Sequence record: PZ386973.1
Direction: 5' to 3' (one strand)
Length of the DNA: 64,000 bases
Origin: a phage
The notes below the pieces were generated by a model that saw only the letters and a list, made by a program, of their open reading frames with translations, searched no databases and was not told where the DNA came from. How positions within the stretch are numbered: the first letter of the stretch is position 1; the number at the start of each line of letters is the position of its first letter. Positions 30,874-63,508 of this stretch are shown here, in pieces. A program made the position numbers and the translations under genes.

Positions 30874-30901
30874 CCAAATTAACTTAAATAGGAAATAAAA
30901 T

Positions 30902-31328: not shown

Positions 31329-31337
31329 TAGCATTCT

Positions 31338-31410: not shown

Positions 31411-31419
31411 CCAAACAAT

Positions 31420-31492: not shown

Positions 31493-31503
31493 CCAAATAA
31501 TAG

Positions 31504-31576
31504 GCGGTTAAGCACACGGGTTGTGTCGCAGGCCTTCCAAGCCTCGCTGAGTAGGGTTCGATTCCCTCTAGCCGCT
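31504..31576 (+). tRNA. tRNA-Gly (anticodon TCC)
   Basis: Acceptor GCGGTTA/TAGCCGC, loop CTTCCAA. Confidence 0.6.
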
Positions 31577-31595
31577 CCAACTTTAAGGAAACGTT

Positions 31596-31847: not shown

Positions 31848-32004
31848 CAACCTAAAAGTAAAGATCGATAAACAAAAGAAACGTGTAGAAGTAGAGATTG
31901 GTGAAGAACGTGTAGCCTTCACCTTTGAATTTCTTCAGCAGTTGGCAATGACAGTTATGACTGATAAGTCTCCTGTTATTGAAAAAGAAATCCCGTTGAA
32001 ATAA
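31840..32004 (+). CDS. hypothetical small protein
   Basis: ATG 31840 overlapping the upstream stop; 54 codons. Confidence 0.4.
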   Translation: MADNLKVKIDKQKKRVEVEIGEERVAFTFEFLQQLAMTVMTDKSPVIEKEIPLK

Positions 32005-32012
32005 CGGGTTTT

Positions 32013-32084
32013 GCTCCTAAAGCATTGCTGGCGATGCAGTTGCCTTGTAAGCATCTGAACCGGGTTCGATTCCTGGTGGGAGCA
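32013..32084 (+). tRNA. tRNA-Thr (anticodon TGT)
   Basis: Acceptor GCTCCTA/TGGGAGC, D-stem GCAT/ATGC, loop CTTGTAA. Confidence 0.65.
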
Positions 32085-32102
32085 CCAAATTTAAAAATTC
32101 AT

Positions 32103-32131
32103 TTGCCTTCTCTCTTATTTATTGTTATAAT
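32103..32131 (+). promoter_or_regulatory. early promoter module
   Basis: TTGCCT-N17-TATAAT. Confidence 0.55.
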
Positions 32132-32161
32132 ATTTATATAAATTAATGAGAGGGAAACCAA

Positions 32162-32455
32162 ATGAAACGTTATCTTTCTGTATTATTCCAAGCTGGTGGT
32201 CAACGCTATACTTACGAATTTCCTAGCTCTTGGAAAATAAAAGAAGGTGATCAAGTAGTAGTGTTAACACCACGTGAAGGGTATAAAGTAGTAACGGTTA
32301 AACAAGTATTTCCAAAAGATCATGAACCGGCTAAAGGCATTCGCTATAAGATGATTCATGGTGTGGTTCGTCAAGTACCACGAGCGGAAGTAGAAATCAG
32401 AGTAGATAAAGATGGTAAACTTAAGTATACTTCTTGCTTAGATGAGTTACTATAA
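32162..32455 (+). CDS. hypothetical protein
   Basis: Track ORF. Confidence 0.45.
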   Translation: MKRYLSVLFQAGGQRYTYEFPSSWKIKEGDQVVVLTPREGYKVVTVKQVFPKDHEPAKGIRYKMIHGVVRQVPRAEVEIRVDKDGKLKYTSCLDELL

Positions 32456-32661
32456 TGAGGATTACTTTCACAGAAAAGATCATGAGTAATGGTGTTATGA
32501 TCATTACCGCATGGGATGGTAATCAGTGGTGTAGTGTTTCAGGTATTAAGCCCGAAGAACAAACACTAGAAAATATCTCAAAGATTAAGCGAAGAATGGC
32601 AGAACGTGCACGACTTCCAGGTGCGCCTAGAAATGGTAAACGTTCTGCAATTAAATGTTAA
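32455..32661 (+). CDS. hypothetical protein
   Basis: Track ORF, ATGA overlap. Confidence 0.4.
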   Translation: MRITFTEKIMSNGVMIITAWDGNQWCSVSGIKPEEQTLENISKIKRRMAERARLPGAPRNGKRSAIKC

Positions 32662-32662
32662 T

Positions 32663-32736
32663 GCTTCGGTAGCTTAGCGATCTAAAGCACTCGGCTGATA
32701 ACCGAGAGATCGGGGGTTTAAATCCCTCCCGGAGTA
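32663..32736 (+). tRNA. tRNA-Ile (anticodon GAT)
   Basis: Acceptor GCTTCGG/CCGGAGT, anticodon stem CTCGG/CCGAG, loop CTGATAA; unusual T-loop TTTAAAT. Confidence 0.6.
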
Positions 32737-32835
32737 CCAAATTTAGGAATTAAGACTATGCGTCCAGGAAAGTTTAAAAAAGCTAATTGGTCTAAAGAGT
32801 ATAAAGAATACTTACTTAGTCTAATAAAACATAAT

Positions 32836-32908
32836 AGTTAGTTGGCAGAGTGGTTATGCACCTCCTTCATACGGAGCGACTACAGTGGTTCAAATCCACT
32901 ACTAACTA
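32836..32908 (+). tRNA. tRNA with CAT anticodon (Met or Ile2)
   Basis: Acceptor AGTTAGT/ACTAACT, loop TTCATAC. Confidence 0.6.
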
Positions 32909-32934
32909 CCAAATTCTAACATCGGGGAGATCTA

Positions 32935-49482: not shown

Positions 49483-49835
49483 AATCTCATAGATTAAAAA
49501 CAACTCTTGTTTTGAACTCTAGGGGCGATGATTATTACACTTAGTATTACGTCTATACGTTGCGACAGCACGAGTATAGATCTAATTACTAAGTCTTCCG
49601 TAATACTCACGCGCCCCACGAGTAAGCTCTCATGAAATGGGGGGACTATTTACTTTTAAAATATATGAAAATATTTAAAGGCAATATCTGTGTTCAAGAT
49701 GGTACACCTGTTGCCGCTCTTCTGCTAGGATGGCACAACACTTTCTTCTAGACTCCTAAGTTTATCACGAAATACCACACTTCTAGTGGGCGGTTCTCCT
49801 AAGTTTCTAGGAACATATACTAGGCGGTTAATACA

Positions 49836-49880
49836 GGGCGGTTATAGGGAGGGCGGTTATAGGGAGGGCGGTTATTTCTA
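49836..49880. repeat. tandem repeat, 3 copies of GGGCGGTTAT(A)GGGA
   Basis: Three adjacent copies read directly. Confidence 0.8.
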
Positions 49881-49917
49881 GAAGACATTTTTTGAAAACA
49901 CATTTCCAGAAATTACT

Positions 49918-50517
49918 GTCGGATTTGCACACTGCATTTCTAGAAATTTATGGTCGGATTTGCACAAACGCCTAAGTTTTTAGGAACATATAATCTCTTG
50001 AAAATAGCAGCATTATTTCGGGCCGAAGGCCCATGATTGCCTGAGTTTTTAGAGCCACAGAAATTTTCCCTTGTCAAGCTATTTTGCCACATTTAGCTAA
50101 TAAAATTTTACTTTTTCTGCACCTATCTCAAATCTTCTCCAATTATCTCAACTCTTCCCCAAAATCCCGGCAAATCTGGTGCTCCGCACCAACCATGCGC
50201 CCACATCCCTCTAGTCCCCAAAATTTCTTCGTTCTCTCAACTTCTCTCCAAACCTATACAATCACACACCCTCTAATCGAAGTCATAAAAATCTTGTCGG
50301 ATTCGCACATCTTAATCCTAGAAAAACCGTGTCGGATTTGCACATACCCCACAGGATTCGAACGCAGTTCGTGATTGCTGGAGTTTTTGGGAAAATTCAT
50401 TGTCGGATTCGCACACTATAAAAATTTTTAGGGTCGGATTTGCACACTACCAAAAATTGTCGGATTCGCACATACACGCCAGCACGTAACCCGTGGAGCA
50501 AATGTCGGATTTGCACA
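49918..50517. repeat. iteron array: 8 direct copies of GTCGGATT(T/C)GCACA
   Basis: Copies at 49918, 49963, 50296, 50331, 50402, 50433, 50459, 50504, all same orientation. Confidence 0.85.
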
Positions 50518-50522
50518 AAAGC

Positions 50523-50700
50523 GCAGGGCAATTGCCCTGCTAGTTTGAATGCGAATAAAAATGAGAATCATTATCATTTAAAAAGCGGAATGCGAATGAG
50601 AATCATTATCATTTACGAAAGGGAATGAGAACTATTCAGGAAGTGAAACGATTCTCATTTAGATAGTGAAATGCGAATGATAATGATTCGCATTTAAAAA
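50523..50700. repeat. 18-bp palindrome GCAGGGCAATTGCCCTGC plus direct and inverted copies of a GAATGCGAATGAGAATCATTATCATTTA unit
   Basis: Palindrome 50523-50540; repeat copies around 50547-50615 and inverted or palindromic copies 50646-50696. Confidence 0.75.
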
Positions 50701-50727
50701 CGGAAGTGAGAAACACTGTTATTTAAG

Positions 50728-50819
50728 TTATCCACAGACTTATCAACAGCACGATTTGACTTGACAAAATCCTAGCCATTTTGAGGCGTTATTAACAGAC
50801 TTATCCACAGCTTATCCTA
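50728..50819. promoter_or_regulatory. cluster of DnaA-box-like 9-mers (TTATCCACA and variants)
   Basis: TTATCCACA at 50728 and 50801; variants TTATCAACA, TTATTAACA, TTATCCTAC. Confidence 0.6.
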
Positions 50820-50835
50820 CTGTATAAATATACAG
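50796..50835. repeat. left arm of a 40-bp inverted repeat (partner 54682-54721)
   Basis: CAGACTTATCCACAGCTTATCCTACTGTATAAATATACAG; reverse complement matches the right arm at 39 of 40. Confidence 0.8.
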
Positions 50836-50986
50836 TATTCCTACGCAGTGAATAGTTCTAATATAGCGTTAAAACGTCCTAGATCGCATTCTAACGCGTT
50901 TAATTTTGGTGGGGATACTAAAACAAGGGGGTATTTATCTGGAGGGAGAAAAACGGGGATCAGATCCCCGTCGATTATTAGAAAAG

Positions 50987-51100
50987 AGGGCAATTATCCC
51001 GCTTTGCCATTTCGCGCCACTCATCCTGATGCCTAGACTTGCGACGGCGTACTAAAAACCGTTTATACCAGTGATTAAACCATCGTTTCATAAATCCTCC
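50987..51100 (-). CDS. small basic protein
   Basis: ATG after GAGGAGG; 37 codons; below track threshold. Confidence 0.3.
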
Positions 51101-51291
51101 TCAGGTAGTCGATGCGTGATCTTCTCCTCTTCCCCATAGGAATCGACCAAATGTTGATAATAACCATCGGCATCATAAATCACTTTATCATATTCGCCAC
51201 GCTCGACCGCTTGCCGATTCTCAGGTGTATCCGGCACATAGAAAACATCAACCATTGTGGTAGTTTTGGTCACAATAATTTTATTGCTCAT
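51088..51291 (-). CDS. hypothetical acidic protein
   Basis: Track ORF. Confidence 0.4.
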   Translation of the reverse strand: MSNKIIVTKTTTMVDVFYVPDTPENRQAVERGEYDKVIYDADGYYQHLVDSYGEEEKITHRLPEEDL

Positions 51292-51514
51292 AATAACGCT
51301 CCGTTATTAAAAATCCCCATATATTCCCGGCCAAATTTTACTAGTAACATAAGTTACTATCCCGGCAACAATTACGCTATAAACTATTAATAAGGTAAAC
51401 ATTAAACCAGACATAATAACTCCTAGTAAATATATTTTTGCCAATAGTGGCGAACGTTATCGCCACCAGCGGAATCATTAGCTGCCTCAGCATTACCAAC
51501 GAAAATATATAATC

Positions 51515-51874
51515 TCATTGTGCCACCTTTCGGAATGCTGTTTCAATACTATCCGCAGTGGATTGAATATATGCGCCTTTCATTATCAGGCGCTCAGTGC
51601 ACACCTTACGGAAGATATTAATAAAATCATCTTCATTTTCTGCGATTAATGCCTCCCCCATGACCTGAATATCACAAGATGCGAAAGTCAAAAATTGAAA
51701 CGCTAGTTCACGGGCAACGACCGCATTGATTTTATAATGCGCCTTGCCCTCATAAATATTAATAACGCCCTTGTAAGCCGGGGAAAGCTGATTTAAGTAG
51801 TTTGCTAACACTGCCGGACGGCAATTAGTAACAAAGCGATTGCCTTCATAAATTATCATTTGCATAGCTCCCAA
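51515..51874 (-). CDS. hypothetical protein
   Basis: Track ORF. Confidence 0.45.
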   Translation of the reverse strand: MGAMQMIIYEGNRFVTNCRPAVLANYLNQLSPAYKGVINIYEGKAHYKINAVVARELAFQFLTFASCDIQVMGEALIAENEDDFINIFRKVCTERLIMKGAYIQSTADSIETAFRKVAQ

Positions 51875-52101
51875 ATAGTTCCGCCGATAATCATTAGCTG
51901 ACTAATGATTATCAGAATAAAACCGATTGAAGGCAGGACGCCCCAATATTGGAACGCCCTTTTAATTTGTTGAATCATTTGTTAGCCTCCCAATTAGATA
52001 GCCAGATAATAACATAAAGATCCCCAGTAAAAGGGGATCATTTTTAAATAAGGTGGCGGTAAAACCGCCAACCATTGCAAGGGTAATAATAATAACGCTT
52101 T

Positions 52102-52314
52102 TCATAGTACCCCACGAAAGGCCGCGTAAAAGGTGGCAAAGTGTTTAACCGTTTCAGCGATCACGTTGCCGCGCTTATCAAATTTCTTTTCGGTAACACG
52201 AAAGGCATTTTTGTTACGTGCTACATATTCGATTTTACAATCAGGACGCTCAAACGTGTTTACATCCACCAGCTTAAAGCCTTTCGAACGTGCAAGAGAA
52301 ACGTTGCGAATCAT
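52102..52314 (-). CDS. hypothetical basic protein
   Basis: Track ORF. Confidence 0.4.
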   Translation of the reverse strand: MIRNVSLARSKGFKLVDVNTFERPDCKIEYVARNKNAFRVTEKKFDKRGNVIAETVKHFATFYAAFRGVL

Positions 52315-52317
52315 TTT

Positions 52318-52470
52318 TTATTCTCCTTTACTAGTCATGCAGCCCAGCAGATAAGAAAATGCAGCGATACCCGCGCCAATAATAACCGCGTGGACACCGA
52401 AAGCTATTGCAAAAAGGGATAAAATAGCGCCCAAGATACCTGCTAGAATAGCTCGAAAAATAACCATTTT
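52318..52470 (-). CDS. small hydrophobic membrane peptide
   Basis: 50 codons, two hydrophobic segments; one of several sub-threshold TM mini-ORFs between 51303 and 52470. Confidence 0.35.
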   Translation of the reverse strand, partial: KMVIFRAILAGILGAILSLFAIAFGVHAVIIGAGIAAFSYLLGCMTSKGE

Positions 52471-52513
52471 CATTCTCCTAGTTAGTGGGGCGAAAGTAAC
52501 GCCCCATTATTAA

Positions 52514-52746
52514 TTACATTAAAACAATTTTAGCGGCTTGTTTTTTGGTGCAATGTTCCGCTTTCAGGGTATCCAGCAAAAAGCCAGCCGTTTGCTGATC
52601 GATTTTATCGGCATTATATAGTTCCTGAATGGTGTTATAGGTTTTAGCAATGCCGAACTCCTGCACCATTTCATGAATGATGACGCGATTAGATACCCAA
52701 CCTTGCGCGGTGAACAGATGACTAGCAGAAGAATATGCAACCATTT
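52514..52746 (-). CDS. hypothetical protein
   Basis: Internal ATG with GGAGG RBS. Confidence 0.4.
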
Positions 52747-52811
52747 TAAGCCTCCAAATTTTTGGGAAAATTTTCAACCGTCCTCAAACGGTGTAAAGGC
52801 ATTATAACAAA

Positions 52812-52838
52812 AAAGGCCGCCATAATAGGCGGCCTTTA
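52812..52838 (-). terminator. intra-operon terminator/attenuator hairpin
   Basis: AAAGGCCGCCATAATAGGCGGCCTTT with a T-run on the minus strand. Confidence 0.45.
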
Positions 52839-52850
52839 CAAAACTTTACA

Positions 52851-53345
52851 TTAAACTACTTGTAAGGATTCAACATTGAAACATCGTTTTAATTCGTCAT
52901 GCAAAACAGCGTATTCCTCCCATCGGGTACTATCAGGAATATAAACAAGCTGTTTTAATCGGTTTGCATATATTACCGCTTTGTTATCAATTATCTCGAC
53001 GCCACCATATTTAATAACTAATTTCATGACGGAATTAATAGGATCGCCGCCGTTTACATATGTGCCGGACTTACTCAATTGATAATGATAAAGGCTTGCA
53101 TACACGTTGTCATTTTCAACCCATTCGCCAGTATCCTCATCTTCATACCCATCGCTACCAAAACGAGAAGCATTATCAATAGCCATTTCCTGAGCGAAAG
53201 CGTCGAGATCTGTACCAGCAGGAACAAAATATTCTTCGGTGTTCCCTTCCCCGCAGTACCCAGTATGGCAATCGACCAAAATGATCATATCGTGTTTTGC
53301 CGTGCTCACTTCTCCCAGTGAGAAGCCATATTTTTCCTCAGCCAT
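52851..53345 (-). CDS. hypothetical acidic protein
   Basis: Track ORF. Confidence 0.5.
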   Translation of the reverse strand: MAEEKYGFSLGEVSTAKHDMIILVDCHTGYCGEGNTEEYFVPAGTDLDAFAQEMAIDNASRFGSDGYEDEDTGEWVENDNVYASLYHYQLSKSGTYVNGGDPINSVMKLVIKYGGVEIIDNKAVIYANRLKQLVYIPDSTRWEEYAVLHDELKRCFNVESLQVV

Positions 53346-53410
53346 TTATTATCCTCCTATTAATTAATCAGGGAATAGTAAAGCGGGGAAACAATCCCCG
53401 CTAGATATTA

Positions 53411-54415
53411 TTATTCGCTTTCGGTGCTAGTGGTGAAGGTAGAAATATCGATACCTTTTACCATTTCATCAATCATTTCAGCGATGTTAAAACTTTGCAC
53501 CATTTCCAACATTGCCGCTTCCATAGCTGCCCCTGCTACCGCTTTCGCTTTCTGATTGCTTGGGGCATACTGGTCAACCGCTACGCTCAGCAGGTTGGCA
53601 ATTACTACTCGACCAATCGGCGTATCAATATAACCTTTAATCATGAACGGTGCTTTTTTAGCCGCTACTTTCGTAATTTGAGTCAGTGCAATTTTACCCG
53701 CTTCCAGTTTTGCAGCGTTTACAACAGCGGATTTATTAGCGGCAACAATATTAGCGATCTTGGTCATAGTATTTTTTCCTTTGTTTTCAGTAGTTTGAGT
53801 ATTAACGCTTTGAGTGTTAGAATTTACAACATGGTTTTCTGTATTGTCAACTGGTTTTAGCGTAAATCCAGCATTTGCAACATTTGATTCATTCCCATAC
53901 TCTAAATAATCGCTAGGGATCAACATGTTACCCGTTGACTTTTCAAAACACAAAACACCAGTTGTTTCTATTGCGTAACTATCCGCACCTTTATAGTTTG
54001 ATGATAGTTCACGCCAGATACTATTTAGTAACGATTCGACACTATCAAGCCTGATATTATTTATTTTTGTTGCTATTACCTGCTCTTTTTCTTGCACGTT
54101 ATATAATCGCGCAATGTAACCATTATTCGGCTCACTGTAACCAACAATGATAAAATCAATATCAGTTCCCCGACTGTTACGGAAAACGTGATAATCACGG
54201 TTGAAAATTACTAGTACCCTTGTCTGGTCTAGTAGTAATATGAAATCATTGACTGAATAATGAGTATCATTACTGTCTAAAATTTCATCATGAATCTTTT
54301 CAACCATGCTAGCGGTATGTTGTACACTTGCCGCGCTACTACCATCTAGCAGGTTGCGCAAACTACCCTTTACAATAGTTGCGTTTGCTGGTACTGCAAT
54401 TCTAGTAAAAGACAT
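53411..54415 (-). CDS. hypothetical two-domain protein with low-complexity linker
   Basis: Track ORF; first gene of the minus-strand cassette. Confidence 0.5.
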   Translation of the reverse strand: MSFTRIAVPANATIVKGSLRNLLDGSSAASVQHTASMVEKIHDEILDSNDTHYSVNDFILLLDQTRVLVIFNRDYHVFRNSRGTDIDFIIVGYSEPNNGYIARLYNVQEKEQVIATKINNIRLDSVESLLNSIWRELSSNYKGADSYAIETTGVLCFEKSTGNMLIPSDYLEYGNESNVANAGFTLKPVDNTENHVVNSNTQSVNTQTTENKGKNTMTKIANIVAANKSAVVNAAKLEAGKIALTQITKVAAKKAPFMIKGYIDTPIGRVVIANLLSVAVDQYAPSNQKAKAVAGAAMEAAMLEMVQSFNIAEMIDEMVKGIDISTFTTSTESE

Positions 54416-54681
54416 TCTCTTGTCTCCCTCGTTAATCGGTGAGTGAATGATAAAGGTATTTTCTTTCTAGGGGCAAATATTATTTTACCTTTTTATTTTC
54501 CTTGCCTAACGCCTAGTTTTATGCTAACCGCGCAGCGGTGCAATAAAGAGCAAACCACGGCGAAGCCACCAGGCCGACGCATCGAGGCTTTACTTTAATA
54601 TTACCCCACCGCATTTAGCTCGTTAGAAAGCGTTTTAGGCGGCCTAAAATTGATTGCAGTTGTTAACACTACCTTTTTACC

Positions 54682-54721
54682 CTGTATATTTATACAGTAG
54701 GATAACCTGTGGATAAGTCTG
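54682..54721. repeat. right arm of the 40-bp inverted repeat (partner 50796-50835)
   Basis: CTGTATATTTATACAGTAGGATAACCTGTGGATAAGTCTG. Confidence 0.8.
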
Positions 54722-54789
54722 TGTAAAACTCCTTATATCGCCGCCTATCGTGTCAAATTATTTTGTGCTGTGGATAACGTTGTGGATAA
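54699..54789. promoter_or_regulatory. cluster of DnaA-box-like 9-mers (TGTGGATAA orientation)
   Basis: TGTGGATAA at 54708, 54769, 54781; TAGGATAAC at 54699. Confidence 0.6.
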
Positions 54790-55150
54790 CTTAAATGATA
54801 GTGGTTCTCACTTAGGCCGATAGTTTCTTATAGTTATTATTTCTATCGGTTACGATTTCTTATAATTATTATTTCTCACTAATTTATATGTATATTATAT
54901 ATTATAGAATAGTTAGTTGGCTAATGAGATTTTCCGTGATTAATAGTCTGCTAATAGTTTAAGCCGTTACAATCCACCAGCATGATTATCATCCTAGCAA
55001 TTATTAGTCTGCTATCTTTCCGATGCATACTAACAAATAAAAGTCAATTAATTTAGTTCATAAAATAAGTAGTTATCCACTGGAAAATAAAAGTCAAGTG
55101 GATAACTAGGAAAATTTCATTTTTGCTTTTGGGGATAAGTTATCAACAAG
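54790..55150. promoter_or_regulatory. AT-rich region with an inverted DnaA-box pair (origin-like)
   Basis: Long A/T-rich tracts; TTATCCACT at 55073 and AGTGGATAA at 55097; no ORF. Confidence 0.4.
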
Positions 55151-55493
55151 GCTAGAATGCGCCTAAAACGCCCTAGAATGCGATGAAAGTTTTAGTCATG
55201 CCATTGCATTGCCTACCCTCGTTTATCTCTACCACGAGCTTTTTAGGTTTTGTCAAGTAGGGCAAAGCAAATATAAATGAAAAAATTACTTGCCTATCTG
55301 CTATGTTTTGTGGTATTCGCGCGCCCGTTTCTTTTAATTTTAGTGCGCCGCGCCCAGGTCGCCGCACGCCGTCCGGTGAATCGTGTCTTTACATTTCTTT
55401 ACAAAAATAAGGTTGCGCCATTTTCGGGAATCCCCTATTATTTATCACGTAGGGCGGCAATGACGAACTACACGGCGGGAAGTTTACCGCCAC

Positions 55494-55532
55494 GCTCTTT
55501 AAAAATTGGGTACATCTTAAAGCCTATCGGCG
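55494..55532. repeat. left arm of an imperfect inverted repeat flanking ORF 55564-55767
   Basis: TGGGTACATCTTAAAGCCTATCGGC core; partner 55773-55813. Confidence 0.65.
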
Positions 55533-55563
55533 GTAAACTTATACATTATAAGGAATCGACGAT

Positions 55564-55767
55564 ATGAAACAAACTTTATTGATCACTGGCAAGCCTAGCA
55601 AGGCACTAGATAGCAAAACAAAAAATTTGTTGACAGTAGCGCAAAGATCGGTAAAATACCGATTCAAGCAATACAAGAAAGGCCGCCAGCAAGGTCTAGA
55701 AATGATCTGGCGAAATATTATGATTGACTTGAAAGAAAATCATAAAAAATCTCAAAAAATTGTTTGA
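55564..55767 (+). CDS. small basic protein flanked by inverted repeats
   Basis: Track ORF; AAGGA RBS; Lys/Arg-rich. Confidence 0.4.
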   Translation: MKQTLLITGKPSKALDSKTKNLLTVAQRSVKYRFKQYKKGRQQGLEMIWRNIMIDLKENHKKSQKIV

Positions 55768-55772
55768 CAACC

Positions 55773-55813
55773 TAGCCGATAGGTTTTAAGATGTACCCAG
55801 TTCGATAAGAGCG
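55773..55813. repeat. right arm of the inverted repeat flanking ORF 55564-55767
   Basis: GCCGATAGGTTTTAAGATGTACCCAG core. Confidence 0.65.
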
Positions 55814-55997
55814 ATAACTTGATAAAATTTGACGGTCGGTGCTTACCATAATGCATCCCGCCCCCTAACTGGGATATAGCGGCCTACGTGGAGTTCTTTA
55901 AATTGATTTAACTGGCGAGCGGATTGTTACTTATTACCTGCTACTGTTTTCTAGCAGGTAATGCGGAACAATCCTCAAATAACTAGGAGTTTATATT

Positions 55998-56249
55998 ATG
56001 CAAAACGTTATCACCGCGCCGAAAGTTGGTCAGTCTGTTTTTATTCCTTTCGTTACCAAAACGGATGAATTAACCGGAAAGGCCGAACGTATTAAAGGTG
56101 CGGCGCTTATGCCGTTTGATACAATCGACGCGGTATATGCTGAAAATGAACGCAGTAACAACGGCAAACCCGTTTTTAACGTTCGTGTTAAATCCGGCGA
56201 CGTTGTAAAGGTTGTTCAACGCAACGAAAAATGGGAAGCTGTATTATAA
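55998..56249 (+). CDS. hypothetical protein
   Basis: Track ORF after AGGAG. Confidence 0.45.
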   Translation: MQNVITAPKVGQSVFIPFVTKTDELTGKAERIKGAALMPFDTIDAVYAENERSNNGKPVFNVRVKSGDVVKVVQRNEKWEAVL

Positions 56250-56350
56250 TCTAGTGTTAACTTTATATTCCCCTGAAATATGGGGAATATAACGATTAAC
56301 ATTAAGTTAATCATTAAATCCCTTAAATTAAACAAATAGGAGTTTTTACC

Positions 56351-56758
56351 ATGACTAACGTTAAAACCGCAAAATTCGCTTGGAATGAAGAAAACACTCA
56401 GAAAGCTGTTTCTATGTACCAGCAGTTAATCAATGAAAACGGTTTAGATTTCGCAAATAGTGACGGCCTGAAAGAAATTGCAAAAGCAGTTGGCGCGGCT
56501 TCTCCCGTATCCGTTCGGTCAAAATTGACCAGCGCGAAAGCGTATCAGAAAAGCGATAAGCCGCGCAAAGTTGGCGGTGGTAGCTCAATCCGCAAAGCGC
56601 ATTATGTACGCGTTATTGCTAAACATGCTATTGATTCCGGCATTATCAAAGACGCCGATGATCTGGCAAGCCTTGAAAGTGCTAAACTTGAAACGCTGGA
56701 CGCCGTGGCGCAACTGTTAGGCGTTGCCGATGAAGTGAAACAAGCCGCAGGAGAATAA
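56351..56758 (+). CDS. pre-early-region protein, possible A2 counterpart
   Basis: Track ORF after AGGAG; sits immediately upstream of the A1-like gene; assignment by position and size only. Confidence 0.4.
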   Translation: MTNVKTAKFAWNEENTQKAVSMYQQLINENGLDFANSDGLKEIAKAVGAASPVSVRSKLTSAKAYQKSDKPRKVGGGSSIRKAHYVRVIAKHAIDSGIIKDADDLASLESAKLETLDAVAQLLGVADEVKQAAGE

Positions 56759-56846
56759 TTATATACATTGCCCTTCCTAGTGGGAGGGCAATAATATAAC
56801 TGTTTAGCGATAGTTATTTTCTTCCCTTAAATCAGGAGTTTTAAAA

Positions 56847-57044
56847 ATGATTTTCTTTCCTACTGAGTCATTAATTTTAGGCTTGTTTATTATGGCGGCC
56901 TCGTTATTACTCGCTTATTTTCAAAATGATTTAGATTCATATTATTTTAAACGTAAATCTAAGTTAGCAAAGCGTTTAGGTCTGATTTGTTTTATTGCCG
57001 CCGTTGCTTGTGGTGTTAGTTCTAGCCTTATGCCTTTAAATTAA
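56847..57044 (+). CDS. small membrane protein
   Basis: Track ORF with hydrophobic helices. Confidence 0.3.
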   Translation: MIFFPTESLILGLFIMAASLLLAYFQNDLDSYYFKRKSKLAKRLGLICFIAAVACGVSSSLMPLN

Positions 57045-57118
57045 TGTTGCAAATTATAACGCCTATTATTCAAGGCGTTATATTTGGCAATATTGCCGTT
57101 ATTAACTTAATCCCTTTA

Positions 57119-58798
57119 ATGGAGTTTATTACTATGATTATTTCCGCAGAAAAACAAACCGTTATCCTGAAAATGGCCGCTGACTTTAATTTCTATGGTA
57201 AACGTCTGCGCGCCACTAAACTGGAGGTCTGCGACGATATATCAAAAGCGGTCTACGATACAACAAAACACTCGACCGCTATCTGCGACTGGCTGGAAGC
57301 AAATAAACCAGTTAAACCGAAAGCGGCGAAAGTAGCAAAAGCCATTAAAAACGATGAGCGTCCAGAAGCGGCGGGGATTGTTTCTAGCACGGTTGAACAG
57401 TGGGAAGTAAAACAAGGCAAACGCTTTATTATTACGTCGATTCAGAATAATACTTTCCCGCATAAAAACTTTTTAGCCTCATTGGAAAAATTCGCTGAAT
57501 ATATCGGTGCTGATTTGCTTGTTTCTAAGTATATTTATAATAAAAACGGCTTCCAAAATGGCGAGGGTGCGGATGGAATCAAATATGATTCCGCGTTCGA
57601 TAAATATATTTGCAGCAAAAACGTGTTTTTAAATAACCGCCGTTTTGCTTTCATGGCTGAAATTAATGTTTTGCCAACAGCAGACTATCCGCTTTCTGGA
57701 TTCGCTGAAACTGCAACGGCGCTTAATCTGGAAGGTCTGGCAATCGGTCATGCTAAAATCACCGCTGAAAGCGTGCCAGCTCTCAAAGGTGAAGTAGTAC
57801 GCCGCATGTATTCAACCGGAACGGCAACGCTCAAAAACTACATTCAGCAGAAAGCAGGGCAAAAAGCGGAAGCGCTTCATAACTTTGGTGCGCTGATTGT
57901 CGAGTTCGACGAGGACGGGGAGTTTTTTGTTCGCCAGCTTGAAACTATGGATGAAAGCGGGGTGTTTTATGATCTGAATGTTTGCGCTACTCCCGCCGGA
58001 TGCTATGAAACAACGGGGCATGTTTTAGGCTTGCAATATGGTGACATACACGCCGAAAAATTGGATGATGATTGTGCCGTTGCGTCATGGGCTGGCGAAA
58101 ATAGCTTGCTTGATATTCTTAAACCAAAATATCAGTTTGTGCATGATGTGCATGATTTTACATCGCGCAACCATCACAACCGCGCTTCGGGTGTATTCCT
58201 AGCAAAACAATATGCCGCCGGACGTGATAAAGTTCTGGATGATCTTATCGATACGGGGCGCGTGCTGGAATCGATGGAACGAGATTTTAGCCAAACAATC
58301 ATTGTTGAATCTAATCACGATCTGGCGCTATCCCGCTGGCTTGATGATCGTAATGCTAACATTAAAGACGATCCAGCAAACGCGGAACTATATCACCGCC
58401 TGAATGCCGAGATTTATGGAGCTATTGCAGAAAAAGACGATACTTTCAACGTGCTAGATTATGCATTGCGCAAGGTTGCAGGTTGTGAGTTTAACGCCAT
58501 TTTCCTAACAACTGACCAATCATTTAAAATTGCAGGCATCGAGTGTGGCGTACACGGTCACAACGGCATTAACGGCAGCCGTGGCAATCCTAAACAATTT
58601 AAGAAATTGGGCAAATTGAACACCGGACACACTCACACCGCCAGCATTTACGGCGGGGTATATACCGCTGGCGTTGCTGGTAGTCTCGATATGGGTTACA
58701 ACGTTGGCGCGTCAAGCTGGACGCAAACGCATTTAATTACCTATGCAAACGGGCAGCGCACTTTGATCGATTTTAAGAATGGTAAATTCTTTGCGTAA
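57119..58798 (+). CDS. A1: A1-like pre-early protein with metallophosphoesterase domain
   Basis: GDIHA, GHNG and GHTHT metallophosphatase motifs; about 555 aa from the internal ATG; matches T5 A1 as recalled. Confidence 0.6.
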   Translation: MEFITMIISAEKQTVILKMAADFNFYGKRLRATKLEVCDDISKAVYDTTKHSTAICDWLEANKPVKPKAAKVAKAIKNDERPEAAGIVSSTVEQWEVKQGKRFIITSIQNNTFPHKNFLASLEKFAEYIGADLLVSKYIYNKNGFQNGEGADGIKYDSAFDKYICSKNVFLNNRRFAFMAEINVLPTADYPLSGFAETATALNLEGLAIGHAKITAESVPALKGEVVRRMYSTGTATLKNYIQQKAGQKAEALHNFGALIVEFDEDGEFFVRQLETMDESGVFYDLNVCATPAGCYETTGHVLGLQYGDIHAEKLDDDCAVASWAGENSLLDILKPKYQFVHDVHDFTSRNHHNRASGVFLAKQYAAGRDKVLDDLIDTGRVLESMERDFSQTIIVESNHDLALSRWLDDRNANIKDDPANAELYHRLNAEIYGAIAEKDDTFNVLDYALRKVAGCEFNAIFLTTDQSFKIAGIECGVHGHNGINGSRGNPKQFKKLGKLNTGHTHTASIYGGVYTAGVAGSLDMGYNVGASSWTQTHLITYANGQRTLIDFKNGKFFA

Positions 58799-58851
58799 TT
58801 AAATTATTCCCTAGCGGCTTGAAATATAGCCGCTATTACAGGAGTCAAAAA

Positions 58852-59109
58852 ATGAAAGTTACATTACCCAAAACATTGGACGAAAAAGTATTCATTTCAC
58901 CGGATGAAATGGAATCTGATAAAGTTTACAGCTTCGGGCCTATCCTAGCCGCCAAAACTAATACGGATGGAATTATTACAGTCGATTATCGTGATAATGA
59001 TGTTGTCCCCTTTGACGATGATGACGCTTTTTATGAATGGTTGAGCGATAATAATTTACCCGTAAATGGTGAATTAACGCCGTATCAAATGCAAATTATT
59101 ATTAAATAA
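58852..59109 (+). CDS. hypothetical acidic protein
   Basis: ATG 58852 after CAGGAG. Confidence 0.4.
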   Translation: MKVTLPKTLDEKVFISPDEMESDKVYSFGPILAAKTNTDGIITVDYRDNDVVPFDDDDAFYEWLSDNNLPVNGELTPYQMQIIIK

Positions 59110-59147
59110 ATTAAATCCCCTATTAAACTAATTGGAGTTTTATAAAT

Positions 59148-59540
59148 ATGAAAAAGCAAAATATCCCATTCGATCGCGCTCAGTCCTCAATTGTTCTGGT
59201 TTATTCTAATGGCGAACGTTACCACGTCGAGGCGGGGCATGTTATTGATGACCTATTAGATTTCAATGACGCTGTGCAGGTTACTACCTTTGCCTATACA
59301 CAAGGCAAACTAACCAGCCATATTAAGGCAAAAGGCGTTTATGTTGACACGGTGAAACAAGAAACGATTATCATCGATGCCGTAAAATCCGGCCTAGCCT
59401 TTGCAGTTGTCGCGCCTTGCCTCGCTTGCCTTGATGATCAATTGATTAGTGCAAAGGTCTACACATGTGCGGGGATTCGTTCTAGCGTATCCGGTGAGGA
59501 TGTTAGTTTTATCGCTGATGCGTTGGCTTATGGTCTTTAA
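59148..59540 (+). CDS. hypothetical protein
   Basis: Track ORF. Confidence 0.45.
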   Translation: MKKQNIPFDRAQSSIVLVYSNGERYHVEAGHVIDDLLDFNDAVQVTTFAYTQGKLTSHIKAKGVYVDTVKQETIIIDAVKSGLAFAVVAPCLACLDDQLISAKVYTCAGIRSSVSGEDVSFIADALAYGL

Positions 59541-59627
59541 TAGTTGATTGAACACAGCCCGCTGATAAAGTATCATTAGTGGGCTGGATTGAATTAACTT
59601 AATCCCTTAAATGGAGAATGCAACAAA

Positions 59628-60362
59628 ATGAATCAAGTTAAAACGAATATTACCCGTAATTTCCCGCATATTTCCCGCGTTATGATTTGGGATCTGGACG
59701 GCACTATCATTAATTCTTTCCATCGTGTAGCGCCTTGTTTTGATAGCGAGGGCAATTTAGATTTAAATAAGTATAAAAATGAAGCCTGCAAACATCATTT
59801 AATAATGCAGGATTCATTATTGCCATTAGTTGAATATATGCGCCAGTGCATGAATGACGCTAACACGCTAAACATTATTTGCACCGCTCGACTAATGAGC
59901 AAATCAGATTATTATTTCTTGCGTAAACAAGGATTGCGAGGGCGTGGAAATAGTAATATCCGCGTGTTTTCCCGCGATACCCTGCACAAATACTTTAAAG
60001 CTGATAAGGTTAGCGAAATATACCACAGCAAGGACGCAGTATATAAAAGCCATTATTTTGAATTATTTAAACAATTATATCCGAACGCTGATTTTACAAT
60101 GATTGATGATCATAAAGGCGTGTTAGCGGCGGCGGCATCATACGGATTTAAAACGCTAGACGCGCAAGCCGTTAATGATATTCTATCAATCGGTGTTACA
60201 TTGATTGGTGAAACCTTTATTGATGAATCGCTCGACGATGATAATGATTATCAGTTCCTGGCCGACCGCCTGCAATTATGTTGGGAAGGTATGACCGAGG
60301 AAGAACGCGCAGAATATAGTTGCAGCCCGCAACAATATATTGAGAAATTAAAAGTTGCGTAA
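59628..60362 (+). CDS. dmp: HAD-family 5'-deoxyribonucleotidase-like protein
   Basis: MIWDLDGTIINS (DxDGT motif I); 244 aa; matches T5 dmp as recalled. Confidence 0.6.
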   Translation: MNQVKTNITRNFPHISRVMIWDLDGTIINSFHRVAPCFDSEGNLDLNKYKNEACKHHLIMQDSLLPLVEYMRQCMNDANTLNIICTARLMSKSDYYFLRKQGLRGRGNSNIRVFSRDTLHKYFKADKVSEIYHSKDAVYKSHYFELFKQLYPNADFTMIDDHKGVLAAAASYGFKTLDAQAVNDILSIGVTLIGETFIDESLDDDNDYQFLADRLQLCWEGMTEEERAEYSCSPQQYIEKLKVA

Positions 60363-60380
60363 TAATTAAAGTTGAAATAG

Positions 60381-60417
60381 TTTCATCCTGCAATTAAAAT
60401 GGTTGCAGGATGAAACA
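60381..60417. terminator. bidirectional terminator hairpin
   Basis: GTTTCATCCTGCAA...TTGCAGGATGAAAC 14-bp stem between convergent genes. Confidence 0.55.
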
Positions 60418-60527
60418 ATTACCCTGCTAATAGTAACGGGGTGTGGCGGTTAGCAGACTAAGTATTTTCCCCCAACCCACTGGACACACCTCCATGTGTA
60501 ATCTTATGAAATTTGGCAAAAGGTTAA

Positions 60528-60773
60528 TTAGCGCATAGAAGGGTCATCAAACCGATGTTCGGGTCTAAACTCACGAAATCTCTTCCGCGACGCCCGAGAA
60601 CCGTCCGCCCACTCCCGTTCAAACTCCGCACGTTTTTCATCAAACCTCTGCTCCCTTTCCGCAATCTCCCGCGATACTTCCGCAATATATTTGCGATGCT
60701 TGTTAATGGCCGCAGTCATTCCGAAAACTCCCGCGATTATTCCGATAATAAAAGCAATTACAATACTAAACAT
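60528..60773 (-). CDS. small membrane protein
   Basis: Track ORF with N-terminal TM helix. Confidence 0.4.
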   Translation of the reverse strand: MFSIVIAFIIGIIAGVFGMTAAINKHRKYIAEVSREIAEREQRFDEKRAEFEREWADGSRASRKRFREFRPEHRFDDPSMR

Positions 60774-60960
60774 CTAGTTCTCTCTCAATTTGCAGAATAC
60801 GAGTGCTATCACAACGTTGCAGTTTTACTGATTTTTCTATAGCTAATTGTTGTTGTTTTACTCTGGCTTCTAGAGTTTTTAGGCGAACATACTCGGTATA
60901 AGAAACAAGGAAAATTGCCCGGACTAATATTACTATTAGTGTAGCTGCCAATTCCATCAT
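60766..60960 (-). CDS. small membrane protein
   Basis: Track ORF; followed by two more sub-threshold TM mini-ORFs around 60960-61207. Confidence 0.4.
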   Translation of the reverse strand: MMELAATLIVILVRAIFLVSYTEYVRLKTLEARVKQQQLAIEKSVKLQRCDSTRILQIERELDV

Positions 60961-61368
60961 TTACGTTTCTCCGTTAATAACGTTTCAATTCTAGCCAGGT
61001 GGTTATCTAAAATACATTGCCCAATAATCACAATCCCTAGTAGTGCAATAATTACCCATTCCATTAAATCCACCCCGCCATAGCTGCTAACCAAAAACCT
61101 ACGAAAATAAAGAATAGGATAGTCCCAAGTCCAAAACTATTAATCCAGCTATCATACACCTCTCCGCGTCTGCTCTTTCTTTTGTTTGACATATCTTTCA
61201 TGCTCCTATAAGTGTGGTATTTAAAATAGTCTATAATTTGTACACAACCAACCGTGCTTATAGACTCCTAGAAGGACTTCTACTTTTCCTACCTAGTGGT
61301 TTCTGCCAGTACACCATCCAAGAAATAAAAAATTTAGTTTACTTGGATGTCTTTTTGTTTTATACTAA

Positions 61369-61635
61369 TTACAAGTAATTAGATTGTTCTAGTTTAAATT
61401 TACAGTCACCATATTTAAGGTCAAACTGACTGAGATCCCACCACCCAAACTTAGTACGGAGCTGTACTACTGGAAAGCGATCTCCCTTAATACGAACTTT
61501 TTGAACCTTGAGGCCGTAATGTTCTTCTCCCGCACCCCCAAAAGATTTTACAAATCCCGTACAAAATGGTTTAGGAGCAGGTGCACAACCAGATAACATA
61601 ACTGCGGCAACTAGTGCAATCACAAACTTTTTCAT
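61369..61635 (-). CDS. llp: small lipoprotein, Llp-like (candidate receptor-blocking protein)
   Basis: Lipobox MKKFVIALVAAVMLSGC; divergent from and adjacent to the receptor-binding-like gene. Confidence 0.55.
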   Translation of the reverse strand: MKKFVIALVAAVMLSGCAPAPKPFCTGFVKSFGGAGEEHYGLKVQKVRIKGDRFPVVQLRTKFGWWDLSQFDLKYGDCKFKLEQSNYL

Positions 61636-61720
61636 ATTTATCTCTCCATTTCTAATTTATGAATCTATTATAGCAAAATAGAGAGATAAAAGCAAATACA
61701 TTTTTATAATAGGAGATTAT

Positions 61721-63508
61721 ATGGGTTTTTTCGCTGGAAAATATAGTGATGGTAAAACTGTATTATCACTAAACAAAGTGAATGGTGGGGATATTAATGC
61801 CCACAAAACTCCTAATGCCAATACTATATTTCACTCTGATATGCCATTTGTTCTAGTTGAGAGTACTTATGAAAGTGCACTTTCTAATGCTGGAAATGGC
61901 TTTTTTGTATGTCAGATGCCTTCTGTGATAGCTAACCTAAAAAGTAATGATCCTGGTAGGGTTATACTAACCGCTGTTGAGATAAATGGTACACATAGAG
62001 CTTTTCTTAACGGTACTCAATCCCAGGTTGGGCAATTTCTTGCATTTTTTGAAGATCCCCCTATTGGTAGGGCTGGTGCTGAACTAGGCCTTACGTCAGC
62101 TTTTGCATCTGGTAATAGTTTGGCACATGGTACTTACACTTATAACTCCAGTCTAGGCCATGAAGAGTCAATAGCTAGACAAGGTACTGGTGGTACTATA
62201 TCACAGGCTTCTGGATTTAACTTATACAGACCTGGAGGGGCATATGCCGGTGAAGCTATCGGTAGAGCATGGACTTTAGCAGGATTTCCAGCTGGAGCAT
62301 CTAAAGTATCGATAAATAGTGGTAATGTTGACTTCTGGCACCCTAATTGGCAAGCTCCTATAGGGGCTGGGAAAAGGGGTCATAATTGGTTTTATGTTTG
62401 TAATTCCAATATACGTGGGTATGCAGGTAAAAAAGGTACTACGCCAAGTAATGTTAGTGTCCTATATAATTCTTCAACCTATCCAAATAAGGTTTATGTA
62501 TGCAGAGGCTCGACATCTAACTTAGCATCACAAGCAGCAAAGAAGATGTATGTGCAGGATAGTTATAATGTTACTCCTACCAAAGTTATTTGGTATGTGC
62601 TGAATCTTAGATACTCTAATGGTAGTATGAGCGTTGCTAGTAATCCCTTTACTGGATCCGATATTCTTATAAGCCCCTCTAATTTTACTATAAAAGGTGT
62701 TAGTCTTCCAAATACTAGTTACAAATTCATTAATCAGAATGCTTTTGGTAACTTATCGTCTAGACCTGATATGGAGTACATTGGTAATAACGTTGCTTAT
62801 ACCGGAGTCTTTGGAGACACTACAGCAAGATGCGAGATTGTAGGTTCTAACAAAGGCTCTTTATGGTCTCCGGTAAATTATGGGGGCTCTAAATCTCAGA
62901 TAAGTATTTACAAATTTTCTGCTGGTAAACAATGGTATGTTAATTCCAATAATAATACTATAGGTAATGAGCATGGGGTTGTTTGGGGACCTTCTTCAGT
63001 ACCTTTACGATTACTGCCAAATAACGTAGCTAGTACTTACATAGGTGATGATATAAACCCCTCTTATCCAGGTACAGGAAATAAGTACGTAGGGCTATCT
63101 ACCGTAGGCCTTGGATTACCTAATGCAAACTCTACAGTAATCCTAACTACTGAGGTAGTTGCCGGAAATCTTAATACAGCAGGAGGTCCTATACGAACAT
63201 ATGGTGGCACTGCGTGGCAGGTGCAAGGTAGAAGACAACAAAGTTATACAGGTGGTGATGGGGTATTCCATCAAATATTAACTTTACCACCTAATCAGTT
63301 GGTGCCCTTCCATACTACAGCTTCTTATAGCTATACACAGCAGTGGGCTAGTCGACCTGATGATTTAACATTTACTAGAAGTGGATTTATTTATACTATT
63401 AAAAATTTGGGTAACGGTAACGCTGAGTTAGGTGTAGTTATACATGCAAATGAATCCGCCGCAGTTTTCTTACCGAGATTACGAGTAACAGTTCAACGCC
63501 TTACCTAA
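61721..63508 (+). CDS. receptor-binding tail protein-like (pb5/oad-like)
   Basis: 595 aa, Gly/Asn/Ser/Thr-rich; position next to the lipoprotein gene. Confidence 0.5.

What the first reader, a model, noticed from the sequence alone, without database searches (positions are those of the whole stretch)
55998..60362. A1-like and dmp-like pre-early block
A roughly 555-aa metallophosphoesterase-motif protein and a 244-aa HAD nucleotidase follow a 135-aa protein in the same order I recall for T5 A2, A1 and dmp. These genes mediate host DNA degradation and second-step DNA transfer in T5.
Basis: partly seen in the sequence, partly recalled or inferred. Interest (0 to 1): 0.45.

Follow-up and report, generated by a model that had tools for sequence, protein, structure and literature searches.

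The report
T5-type pre-early host-takeover gene block
This stretch is the well-known "first-injected" gene block of a T5-like phage: A2, A1 and dmp, which destroy host DNA and pull in the rest of the phage genome. It is 95-99% identical in protein sequence to phage T5 itself, so it is ordinary.

Summary
The observation and the interpretation both hold. Window 55998-60362 (+) carries seven co-oriented genes colinear with T5 genes T5.007 to dmp. These are T5.007 (83 aa, 88-89% aa identity), A2 (135 aa, 99.3%) and the T5.005 membrane protein (65 aa, 97%). They continue with A1 (true start 57134, 554 aa, 95-96%), an 85-aa gene in place of T5.003, T5.002 (130 aa, 92-93%) and dmp (244 aa, 96%).

The order A2, small gene, A1, small gene(s), dmp persists in Klebsiella, Serratia and Vibrio Demerecviridae. 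By homology the block lies at the outer end of the terminal-repeat (first-step-transfer) region, about 50052-60486. That region is present once here, in a collapsed, permuted assembly.

Function is inferred from T5 genetics. A1 is necessary and sufficient for host DNA degradation, A1 plus A2 are required for second-step transfer, and Dmp dephosphorylates dNMPs.

Novelty: already known. The only unexplained item is a conserved AAUCCC box, preceded by hairpins, upstream of the ribosome-binding sites of these genes.

The parts
55460..55567 (+).
   Evidence: 33/35 aa identical to T5.009
55564..55767 (+). hdi (T5.008, host division inhibitor) homolog, 67 aa
   Evidence: 87% aa identity to T5.008, E 6e-43. 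Function from Annor et al. 2026
55630..55657 (+). sigma-70 promoter-like site (TTGACA-16-TAAAAT, 11/12) inside hdi; positional equivalent of T5 promoter P_H22
   Evidence: Consensus scan. T5 P_H22 (4799-4873) maps to about window 55628-55702 through the colinear alignment. Not tested experimentally here
55764..55792 (+). second promoter-like site (TTGACA-17-TAAGAT, 10/12) just after hdi
   Evidence: Consensus scan; consensus match only
55921..55974 (+). 23-nt-arm hairpin in the leader of the 83-aa gene
   Evidence: Inverted repeat I7; fold -29.4 kcal/mol, z -4.6
55998..56249 (+). T5.007 homolog, 83 aa, Pfam DUF7177; function unknown, dispensable in T5
   Evidence: Pfam E 1.8e-41; 89% identity to T5.007; dN/dS 0.11
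56351..56758 (+). A2 (T5.006) ortholog, 135 aa; dsDNA-binding protein required for second-step transfer
   Evidence: 99.3% aa identity to T5 A2; PHROG 1725, E 4e-52; dN/dS 0.027
56847..57044 (+). T5.005 homolog, 65 aa, two hydrophobic segments (membrane protein)
   Evidence: 96.9% identity; PHROG 4820
57134..58798 (+). A1 (T5.004) ortholog, 554 aa. N-terminal helical region of about 70 aa, conserved middle domain at about 90-295, C-terminal metallophosphoesterase domain at about 297-554. Catalytic codons: D304 58043-58045, H306 58049-58051, D338 58145-58147, D341 58154-58156, N394/H395 58313-58318, H474 58553-58555, H499/H501 58628-58636
58852..59109 (+). 85-aa gene of unknown function (PHROG 8297) occupying the slot where T5 has T5.003
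   Evidence: No BLASTP match to any T5 pre-early protein; PHROG E 1.5e-49; present in 182 phage records
59148..59540 (+). T5.002 homolog, 130 aa, function unknown
   Evidence: 92% identity; PHROG 4576; dN/dS 0.04
59628..60362 (+). dmp (T5.001) ortholog, 244 aa; HAD-superfamily deoxynucleoside-5'-monophosphatase. Motif codons: D22 59691-59693, D24 59697-59699, T86 59883-59885, K140 60045-60047, D160/D161 60105-60110
   Evidence: 95.9% identity to T5 Dmp; homologs carry PF26880 Phage_T5_dNMPase; motifs invariant in 30 sequences; HAD fold by Foldseek
60376..60420 (.). 18-nt-arm hairpin 14 nt after the dmp stop codon; probable end of the operon (no clean U-tract)
   Evidence: Inverted repeat I17; -24.7 kcal/mol, z -6.3
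60486..60486 (.). Position homologous to nucleotide 1 of the T5 genome (outer end of the terminal repeat)
   Evidence: blastn T5 1-1376 to window 60486-59104. The same window stretch continues colinearly into T5 110785-111531

Best explanation
The block is the leftward pre-early (first-step-transfer) operon of a T5-like siphovirus (Demerecviridae, Markadamsvirinae, Tequintavirus-like). It is orthologous gene for gene to T5 T5.007-A2-T5.005-A1-[slot]-T5.002-dmp.

Proposed working, by transfer from T5. The terminal repeat is the first about 8% of the genome to enter the cell. Host sigma-70 RNA polymerase transcribes the operon from strong promoters around hdi.

A1 is a two-metal metallophosphoesterase-fold protein of the Mre11/SbcD/PolD-DP1 structural class. 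It brings about rapid degradation of the host chromosome, most likely as the DNase itself.

Dmp is a HAD phosphatase with an Asp nucleophile at D22. It strips the phosphate from the released dNMPs, so they leave the cell as nucleosides instead of being recycled.

[quoted passage not shown] A1 also dampens pre-early transcription.

Shown here: orthology, synteny, intact catalytic motifs, folds, purifying selection, and position at the repeat end by homology. Inferred from T5 experiments: all activities and phenotypes.
For: Full-length BLASTP identities of 89-99% to the T5 proteins, in T5 order. 465 T5-like phage records match the DNA, 315 over at least 80% of it; the best is Salmonella phage SCF at 93.3%.

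PHROG hits: A1 5e-244, A2 4e-52, dmp 1e-57. dN/dS against T5 is 0.027-0.12 for every gene.

Dmp: the DxDxT, T, K and DD motifs are invariant in 30 homologs. All top Foldseek hits are HAD phosphatases. The family is PF26880 Phage_T5_dNMPase.

The order A2, small gene, A1, small gene(s), dmp is kept in Klebsiella Sugarlandvirus, Serratia Slocum and Vibrio Thalassavirus, where A1 is only 33% identical.

T5 nucleotide 1 maps to window 60486 and T5 10219 maps to window 50052.

T5 functions come from Annor et al. 2026, Davison 2020 and PMC13250531.
Against: Nothing here is experimental for this phage.

Curated profile libraries do not recognise the three proteins. The local Pfam copy has no Metallophos, HAD or PF26880 hit at E <= 0.1. 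NCBIfam has none. The PDB sequence search finds nothing.

Nuclease activity of purified A1 has not been demonstrated, even for T5. How phage DNA escapes A1 is unknown.

Only one copy of the repeat is in the window, so its terminal-repeat status is by homology only.

T5.003 is replaced, and T5 hegG is absent from the FST-equivalent region just upstream of the block.
Confidence: 0.94

Rival explanations
1. Same genes, different mechanism for A1. A1 is not itself the DNase. It activates or redirects a host nuclease, or acts mainly through its RNA-polymerase and membrane interactions. On this reading the metallophosphoesterase site serves another substrate or is structural, as in Vps29 and the polymerase B-subunits.
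Against: All metal-binding residues of motifs I-V are invariant across 33 homologs, including ones from unrelated phage types. Inactive MPE folds normally lose these residues (general knowledge). A1 alone is sufficient for chromosome digestion when expressed in E. coli (abstract).
Confidence: 0.2
2. Davison's model. A1, with A2, is a site-specific restriction-like endonuclease. It cuts the first-step DNA near the injection stop signal to free it from membrane-bound DnaA. It degrades host DNA only because the host carries the sites.
For: Proposed in 10.1101/866236. DnaA-box-like TTATCCACA repeats do occur in the window's repeat regions at 50727-50811 and 54707-54791.
Against: The fold is that of an MPE phosphodiesterase or exonuclease, not a PD-(D/E)xK or HNH restriction fold. 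A1-core homologs also occur in phages with no two-step injection, such as T7-like contigs, Caulobacter, Flavobacterium and cyanophages. There is no experimental support.
Confidence: 0.07
3. The resemblance is superficial or the genes are decayed: a chance juxtaposition of an MPE protein and a HAD protein, or pseudogenised remnants.
For: None, beyond the failure of the generic Pfam and NCBIfam profiles.
Against: 95-99% full-length identity to the T5 proteins with E = 0. The reading frames are intact, dN/dS is 0.03-0.05, and all catalytic residues are retained.
Confidence: 0.01

Closest known systems
Escherichia phage T5 pre-early genes T5.001-T5.007 (dmp, A1, A2) in the left/right terminal repeat, NC_005859
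   Same: Same genes, order and strand. Protein identity: 99.3% (A2), 95% (A1), 96% (dmp), 97% (T5.005), 92% (T5.002), 89% (T5.007). Same distance of dmp from the repeat end (about 124 nt). Same upstream hdi and T5.009 genes, with a promoter-like site at the P_H22 position.
   Different: About 87% nucleotide identity only. T5.003 is replaced by an unrelated 85-aa gene. The HNH gene hegG (T5.010) is absent. The repeat is represented once, in a permuted or collapsed sequence. The receptor-binding protein next door is only 31% identical to T5 pb5.
Other Tequintavirus-like phages (Salmonella phage SCF, Escherichia phages DaisyDussoix/Bas31, BB1, OSYSP)
   Same: 90-93% nucleotide identity across the whole block. 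Identical gene content, including the 85-aa slot gene.
   Different: No record in the phage collection is closer than 93.3% over the block, or about 92% over the surrounding 24.5 kb. This is therefore a distinct strain or species, not a new kind.
Calcineurin-like metallophosphoesterase nucleases (Mre11/SbcD, PolD DP1 proofreading exonuclease, MJ0936 phosphodiesterase)
   Different: 9-17% sequence identity, and no hit to the Pfam Metallophos profile. A1 carries an about 290-aa N-terminal extension (helical region plus conserved middle domain). That extension was not searched for a structural match on its own: no per-domain fold search was run. No Rad50/SbcC partner gene is annotated next to A1 in the records examined.
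HAD-superfamily phosphatases (e.g. T4 polynucleotide kinase/phosphatase domain, AphA, MDP-1)
   Same: Dmp has the DxDxT nucleophile motif, the Thr, Lys and DD motifs, and a Rossmannoid HAD core.
   Different: 10-19% identity and only modest TM-scores (0.4-0.5). Dmp has its own Pfam family (PF26880). It also has a C-terminal helical tail (about 195-244) that is absent from the shorter family members.

Membership tests
T5 A1 family (PHROG 1745 'DNA transfer protein') | Full-length sequence homology to T5 A1 | tested here: met
   95.1% identity over 554/556 aa, E = 0; PHROG E 5e-244
T5 A1 family (PHROG 1745 'DNA transfer protein') | Located in the pre-early region beside A2 and dmp | tested here: met
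   Colinear with T5 1-5419. Same synteny in three other Demerecviridae genera
T5 A1 family (PHROG 1745 'DNA transfer protein') | Required for host DNA degradation, second-step transfer and pre-early shut-off | not testable with these tools
   Needs phage genetics; known for T5 only
Calcineurin-like metallophosphoesterase superfamily (A1 C-terminal domain) | Motifs DxH / GDxxD / GNH(D/E) / H / GHxH | tested here: met
   GD304IH306, HD338VHD341, SN394H395D396, H474, GH499TH501; all invariant in 33 sequences
Calcineurin-like metallophosphoesterase superfamily (A1 C-terminal domain) | MPE alpha/beta sandwich fold | tested here: met
Calcineurin-like metallophosphoesterase superfamily (A1 C-terminal domain) | Match to the Pfam Metallophos sequence profiles | tested here: not met
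   No Metallophos-type hit at E <= 0.1. Membership therefore rests on motifs plus predicted fold, not on a curated profile
Calcineurin-like metallophosphoesterase superfamily (A1 C-terminal domain) | Metal-dependent phosphoester hydrolysis (here DNase) | not testable with these tools
   Not yet shown in vitro, even for T5 A1
T5 A2 (PHROG 1725 'DNA binding protein') | Sequence homology to T5 A2 | tested here: met
   134/135 aa identical; PHROG E 4e-52; dN/dS 0.027
T5 A2 (PHROG 1725 'DNA binding protein') | Dimeric dsDNA binding and association with A1 | not testable with these tools
   Biochemistry reported for T5. No Pfam, NCBIfam or PDB relative was found to give a fold
Phage_T5_dNMPase (PF26880) / T5 Dmp | Sequence homology to T5 Dmp | tested here: met
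   95.9% identity over 244 aa. All 50 homologs found carry precomputed PF26880, named. The local Pfam copy gave no hit
HAD superfamily (dmp) | Four catalytic motifs: DxDx(T/V), S/T, K/R, (D/E)D | tested here: met
   D22-L-D24-G-T26, T86, K140 and D160-D161 are invariant in 30 sequences of 41-90% identity
HAD superfamily (dmp) | Rossmannoid HAD fold | tested here: met
   AF2 pLDDT 84. The top 20 Foldseek PDB hits are all HAD phosphatases, probability 1.0, E 1e-4 to 2e-3, TM 0.4-0.5
HAD superfamily (dmp) | 5'-dNMP phosphatase activity | not testable with these tools
   Enzymology known for T5 Dmp only
T5-type first-step-transfer terminal repeat | Block lies within a direct terminal repeat of about 10 kb that enters first | tested here: inconclusive
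   Homology places T5 LTR 1-10219 at window 60486-50052. The window holds one copy, flanked by both unique ends, so the repeat is collapsed. Physical ends cannot be read from this sequence

The most novel reading that the evidence does not exclude
The intergenic spacers of this operon share a fixed architecture: stop codon, a strong hairpin, an unpaired AAUCCC(U/C)U box, then GGAG and AUG. The box is essentially confined to pre-early genes in the 64-kb window. It is conserved upstream of the orthologous genes in T5, Sugarlandvirus and Serratia phage Slocum, and more weakly in a Vibrio Thalassavirus.

It could be a pre-early-specific post-transcriptional signal. Candidates are a translational operator or anti-SD-like tuner, or a processing or stability element. 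Such a signal might underlie the ordered expression, or the A1-dependent shut-off, of pre-early proteins. I found no mention of it in the T5 papers available here.
Probability: 0.3. Interest if true: 0.4.

Novelty: already known. Interest (0 to 1): 0.1.

Why it matters
It matters little as a discovery. The finding correctly recognises one of the oldest known phage host-takeover modules. Its value is in annotation. It marks the window as a T5-like (Demerecviridae) genome. It locates the probable terminal-repeat / first-step-transfer region at about 50052-60486. It also fixes the true A1 start.

The A1 mechanism is still open: whether it is a direct DNase, and how phage DNA is spared. This ortholog adds nothing new to that question beyond confirming that the metal-site residues are invariant across the family.

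Tried and rejected
- **The 584-aa reading of the A1 ORF (start 57044).** Rejected. The extension is interrupted by stop codons in T5 and DaisyDussoix, and a GGAG precedes the ATG at 57134.
- **The 96-aa TTG-start reading of 58819-59109.** Replaced by the 85-aa ATG start at 58852. This matches PHROG 8297 positions 1-85 and the annotated homologs.
- **Rfam scan of 49500-61800.** Only sub-threshold hits.
- **Intrinsic terminators in the intergenic hairpins.** The scan found none on the + strand in the intergenic spacers, and overall no more than in shuffled sequence. The hairpins lack U-tracts.
- **Literature on the leader box.** Two text searches within papers and two library searches found no description.
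Full report
**What is there**

Between 55998 and 60362 the + strand carries seven consecutive ORFs:
- 83 aa (55998-56249)
- 135 aa (56351-56758)
- 65 aa (56847-57044)
- a large ORF ending at 58798
- a small ORF ending at 59109
- 130 aa (59148-59540)
- 244 aa (59628-60362)

Megablast of 55500-60900 against 50,697 phage records finds 465 matching records. 315 of them cover at least 80% of the query, and all listed are T5-like phages of Salmonella, Escherichia and relatives. The best is Salmonella phage SCF at 93.3%. The annotations under the matches read A1 / DNA transfer protein, A2 / DNA-binding protein and deoxynucleoside-5'-monophosphatase.

**Direct comparison with T5**

I fetched the T5 left terminal repeat (NC_005859 1-12000) and ran BLASTP for each window ORF against each T5 pre-early protein. 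Identities:

| Window ORF | T5 protein | Identity |
|---|---|---|
| 83 aa | T5.007 | 89% |
| 135 aa | A2 | 99.3% |
| 65 aa | T5.005 | 96.9% |
| large ORF | A1 | 95.1% over the full length |
| 130 aa | T5.002 | 92% |
| 244 aa | Dmp | 95.9% |

Order and orientation are those of T5 read on its minus strand. The ORF at 58819/58852-59109 has no T5 counterpart. It occupies the slot of T5.003, matches PHROG 8297, and occurs in 182 phage records. This fits the report that T5.003 is among the least conserved pre-early genes.

**Gene boundaries**

The mechanical A1 ORF starts at 57044 (584 aa), but the real start is the ATG at 57134 (554 aa):
- GGAG lies 9 nt upstream.
- The 30-codon extension is broken by stop codons in T5 and in DaisyDussoix.
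- All 32 homologs aligned begin at or near that Met.

**Are the genes functional?**

Codon-wise comparison with T5 gives dN/dS of 0.027 (A2), 0.052 (A1) and 0.049 (dmp), and 0.04-0.12 for the small genes, at dS of 0.25-1.0. All are under strong purifying selection.

**A1**

A database search found 840 relatives. An alignment of 33 of them, spanning 42-94% identity, shows the residues of the five metallophosphoesterase motifs to be invariant: G303-D304-x-H306, H337-D338-x-x-D341, N394-H395-D396, H474 and H499-x-H501.

This agrees with the description of A1 as a predicted metallo-phosphatase resembling double-strand-break-repair and proofreading nucleases.

**Dmp**

Fifty relatives were found, all carrying PF26880, which is named Phage_T5_dNMPase. 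In an alignment of 30, the four HAD motifs are invariant: D22-x-D24-x-T26, T86, K140 and D160-D161. The model has pLDDT 84. All its top Foldseek hits are HAD phosphatases, including the T4 polynucleotide kinase phosphatase domain and AphA. 'HAD nucleotidase' is correct.

**A2**

A2 differs from T5 A2 at one residue. No fold or profile information could be added.

**Context**

- T5 nucleotide 1 aligns to window 60486.
- The same alignment block from the T5 right end runs without a break from the unique region (T5.159-162) into dmp.
- T5 position 10219, the inner end of the repeat, maps to window 50052. The T5 unique left region continues beyond it.

The window therefore holds the whole terminal-repeat-equivalent (first-step-transfer) region once, joined to both unique ends. 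This means a collapsed, circularly permuted assembly. The block is the outermost operon of that region, and dmp ends about 124 nt from the position of the genome end.

Upstream, the same strand carries the T5.009 and hdi homologs. It also has a near-consensus sigma-70 site at the position of T5 promoter P_H22.

T5 hegG is absent. Downstream lie small membrane-protein genes, an Llp/Cor-type lipoprotein gene and a receptor-binding protein gene.

**Conservation of the module**

The order A2, small gene, A1, small gene(s), dmp is retained in Klebsiella phage pzk-kv7 (Sugarlandvirus; A1 73% identical), Serratia phage Slocum (61.5%) and Vibrio phage Chester (Thalassavirus; 33%).

**How it works**

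This is inferred from T5. [quoted passage not shown] Dmp converts dNMPs to nucleosides that are excreted; it enhances virulence but is dispensable. A1 also associates with RNA polymerase and dampens pre-early promoters.

Whether A1 is itself the DNase has not been shown in vitro. The invariant metal site argues that it is. I put about 0.7 on the direct-nuclease mechanism, conditional on the orthology, which is near certain.

**Verdict**

The feature is already known and ordinary for a T5-like genome.

**Side observations**

Each spacer in the block contains a strong hairpin, with z between -3.8 and -6.9. The hairpin before dmp keeps its pairing through double changes at 5 of 9 pairs across six phages.

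Between the hairpin and the Shine-Dalgarno GGAG lies a box, AAUCCC(U/C)U. It is nearly identical over 24 nt before A1 and before dmp (D11):
- The composite pattern [AT]A[AT]CCC-N5-22-GGAG-N5-11-ATG followed by an ORF has only four hits in the 64-kb window. All four are in this block.
- Among GGAG-ATG sites with ORFs of at least 40 aa, WWCCC occurs upstream in 7 of 15 inside the repeat-equivalent region and in 1 of 36 outside it (Fisher p = 4e-4).
- The box recurs before the orthologous genes of T5, pzk-kv7 and Slocum, and more weakly in Chester.

I could not find it described, and its function is unknown.

A1-core homologs also occur well outside Demerecviridae. One example is a 46-kb T7-like contig, where the gene sits between the primase-helicase and DNA polymerase genes. 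Others are in Caulobacter, Flavobacterium and Synechococcus phages.

Noticed in passing
window 55429, 56317, 56821, 57109, 59114, 59601 (+): A conserved leader box AATCCC(T/C)T lies 5-22 nt upstream of the GGAG of T5.009, A2, T5.005, A1, T5.002 and dmp. The 24-nt copies before A1 (57101-57124) and dmp (59593-59616) are near-identical. The box is confined to the pre-early region in this window (7/15 sites inside versus 1/36 outside, p = 4e-4). It is conserved in T5, Sugarlandvirus and Serratia Slocum. Function unknown; not found in the literature searched.
   Followed up: partly
window 56262-56304, 56767-56817, 57042-57095, 59542-59599, 55921-55974: Every intergenic spacer of the operon holds a strong hairpin without a U-tract (z -3.8 to -6.9). 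The hairpin before dmp shows compensatory changes at 5 of 9 pairs across six phages. These are possibly processing or stability elements rather than terminators.
   Followed up: partly
window 58852-59109 (+): An 85-aa gene (PHROG 8297) sits where T5 has the unrelated T5.003. This looks like a variable slot between A1 and T5.002. The gene is present in 182 phage records, in two divergence classes (over 90% and about 45-57% identity).
   Followed up: partly
window ~50052-60486: The whole T5 terminal-repeat-equivalent (first-step-transfer) region is present once, flanked by homologs of both unique ends. The sequence is therefore a collapsed, permuted assembly, and the true genome ends are not represented.
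   Followed up: yes
window 54416-55460: A non-coding stretch of about 1 kb lies between the two divergent pre-early arms. The T5 HNH endonuclease gene hegG (T5 5411-5929) has no counterpart here.
   Followed up: partly
window 50704-50835 and 54682-54813: A 132-nt inverted repeat (79% complementary) brackets the other pre-early arm. It contains TTATCCACA (DnaA-box consensus) repeats at 50727-50811 and 54707-54791. TGTCGGATT(T/C)GCACA repeats lie at 49911-50519 in the injection-stop-signal-like region. This matches Davison's description of T5 repeat regions 2 and 3.
   Followed up: no
window 55493-55531 and 55775-55813: A 39-nt inverted repeat (85% complementary) flanks the hdi gene. The right arm overlaps a promoter-like site (TTGACA-17-TAAGAT).
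   Followed up: no
L005 10001-11650 (Logan SRR26425195 contig, 46,225 bp); one search hit list: A1-core homologs (about 45% identity, lacking the T5 N-terminal region; some relatives have an N-terminal HTH) occur outside Demerecviridae. One is in a T7-like contig, between the primase/helicase genes and the ligase/DNA polymerase/T7-type RNA polymerase genes. Others are in Caulobacter, Flavobacterium, Cellulophaga, Rhizobium and Synechococcus phages. 1135 phage records match in total.
   Followed up: partly
window 61721-63508 (+) and 61369-61635 (-): The receptor-binding protein is only 31% identical to T5 pb5, but 99.2% identical to that of Escherichia phage phiP4. The pre-early block's best match is a different phage (SCF, 93%). 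The genome is therefore mosaic, with a probably non-FhuA receptor type. An Llp/Cor-like lipoprotein gene is adjacent.
   Followed up: partly
window 53411-54415 (-): In the T5.011 homolog (toxic in T5, function unknown), the C-terminal about 130 residues are nearly identical to T5, but the N-terminal about 200 residues are strongly diverged (61% overall).
   Followed up: no
window 57044-57133 (+): In this phage the A1 reading frame is open for 30 extra codons upstream, overlapping the stop of the 65-aa gene. An automatic annotator would probably call a 584-aa protein. The extension is not conserved.
   Followed up: yes
window 21381-32911 (+): A cluster of 22 tRNA genes, as in the T5 early region.
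   Followed up: no
L007 1829-5223 (GCA_040384205.1 contig, 103.7 kb): A distant Demerecviridae-like contig has the dmp-family gene upstream of A1 on the same strand. That is the reverse of the T5 order. A DUF7566 gene lies between them.
   Followed up: no
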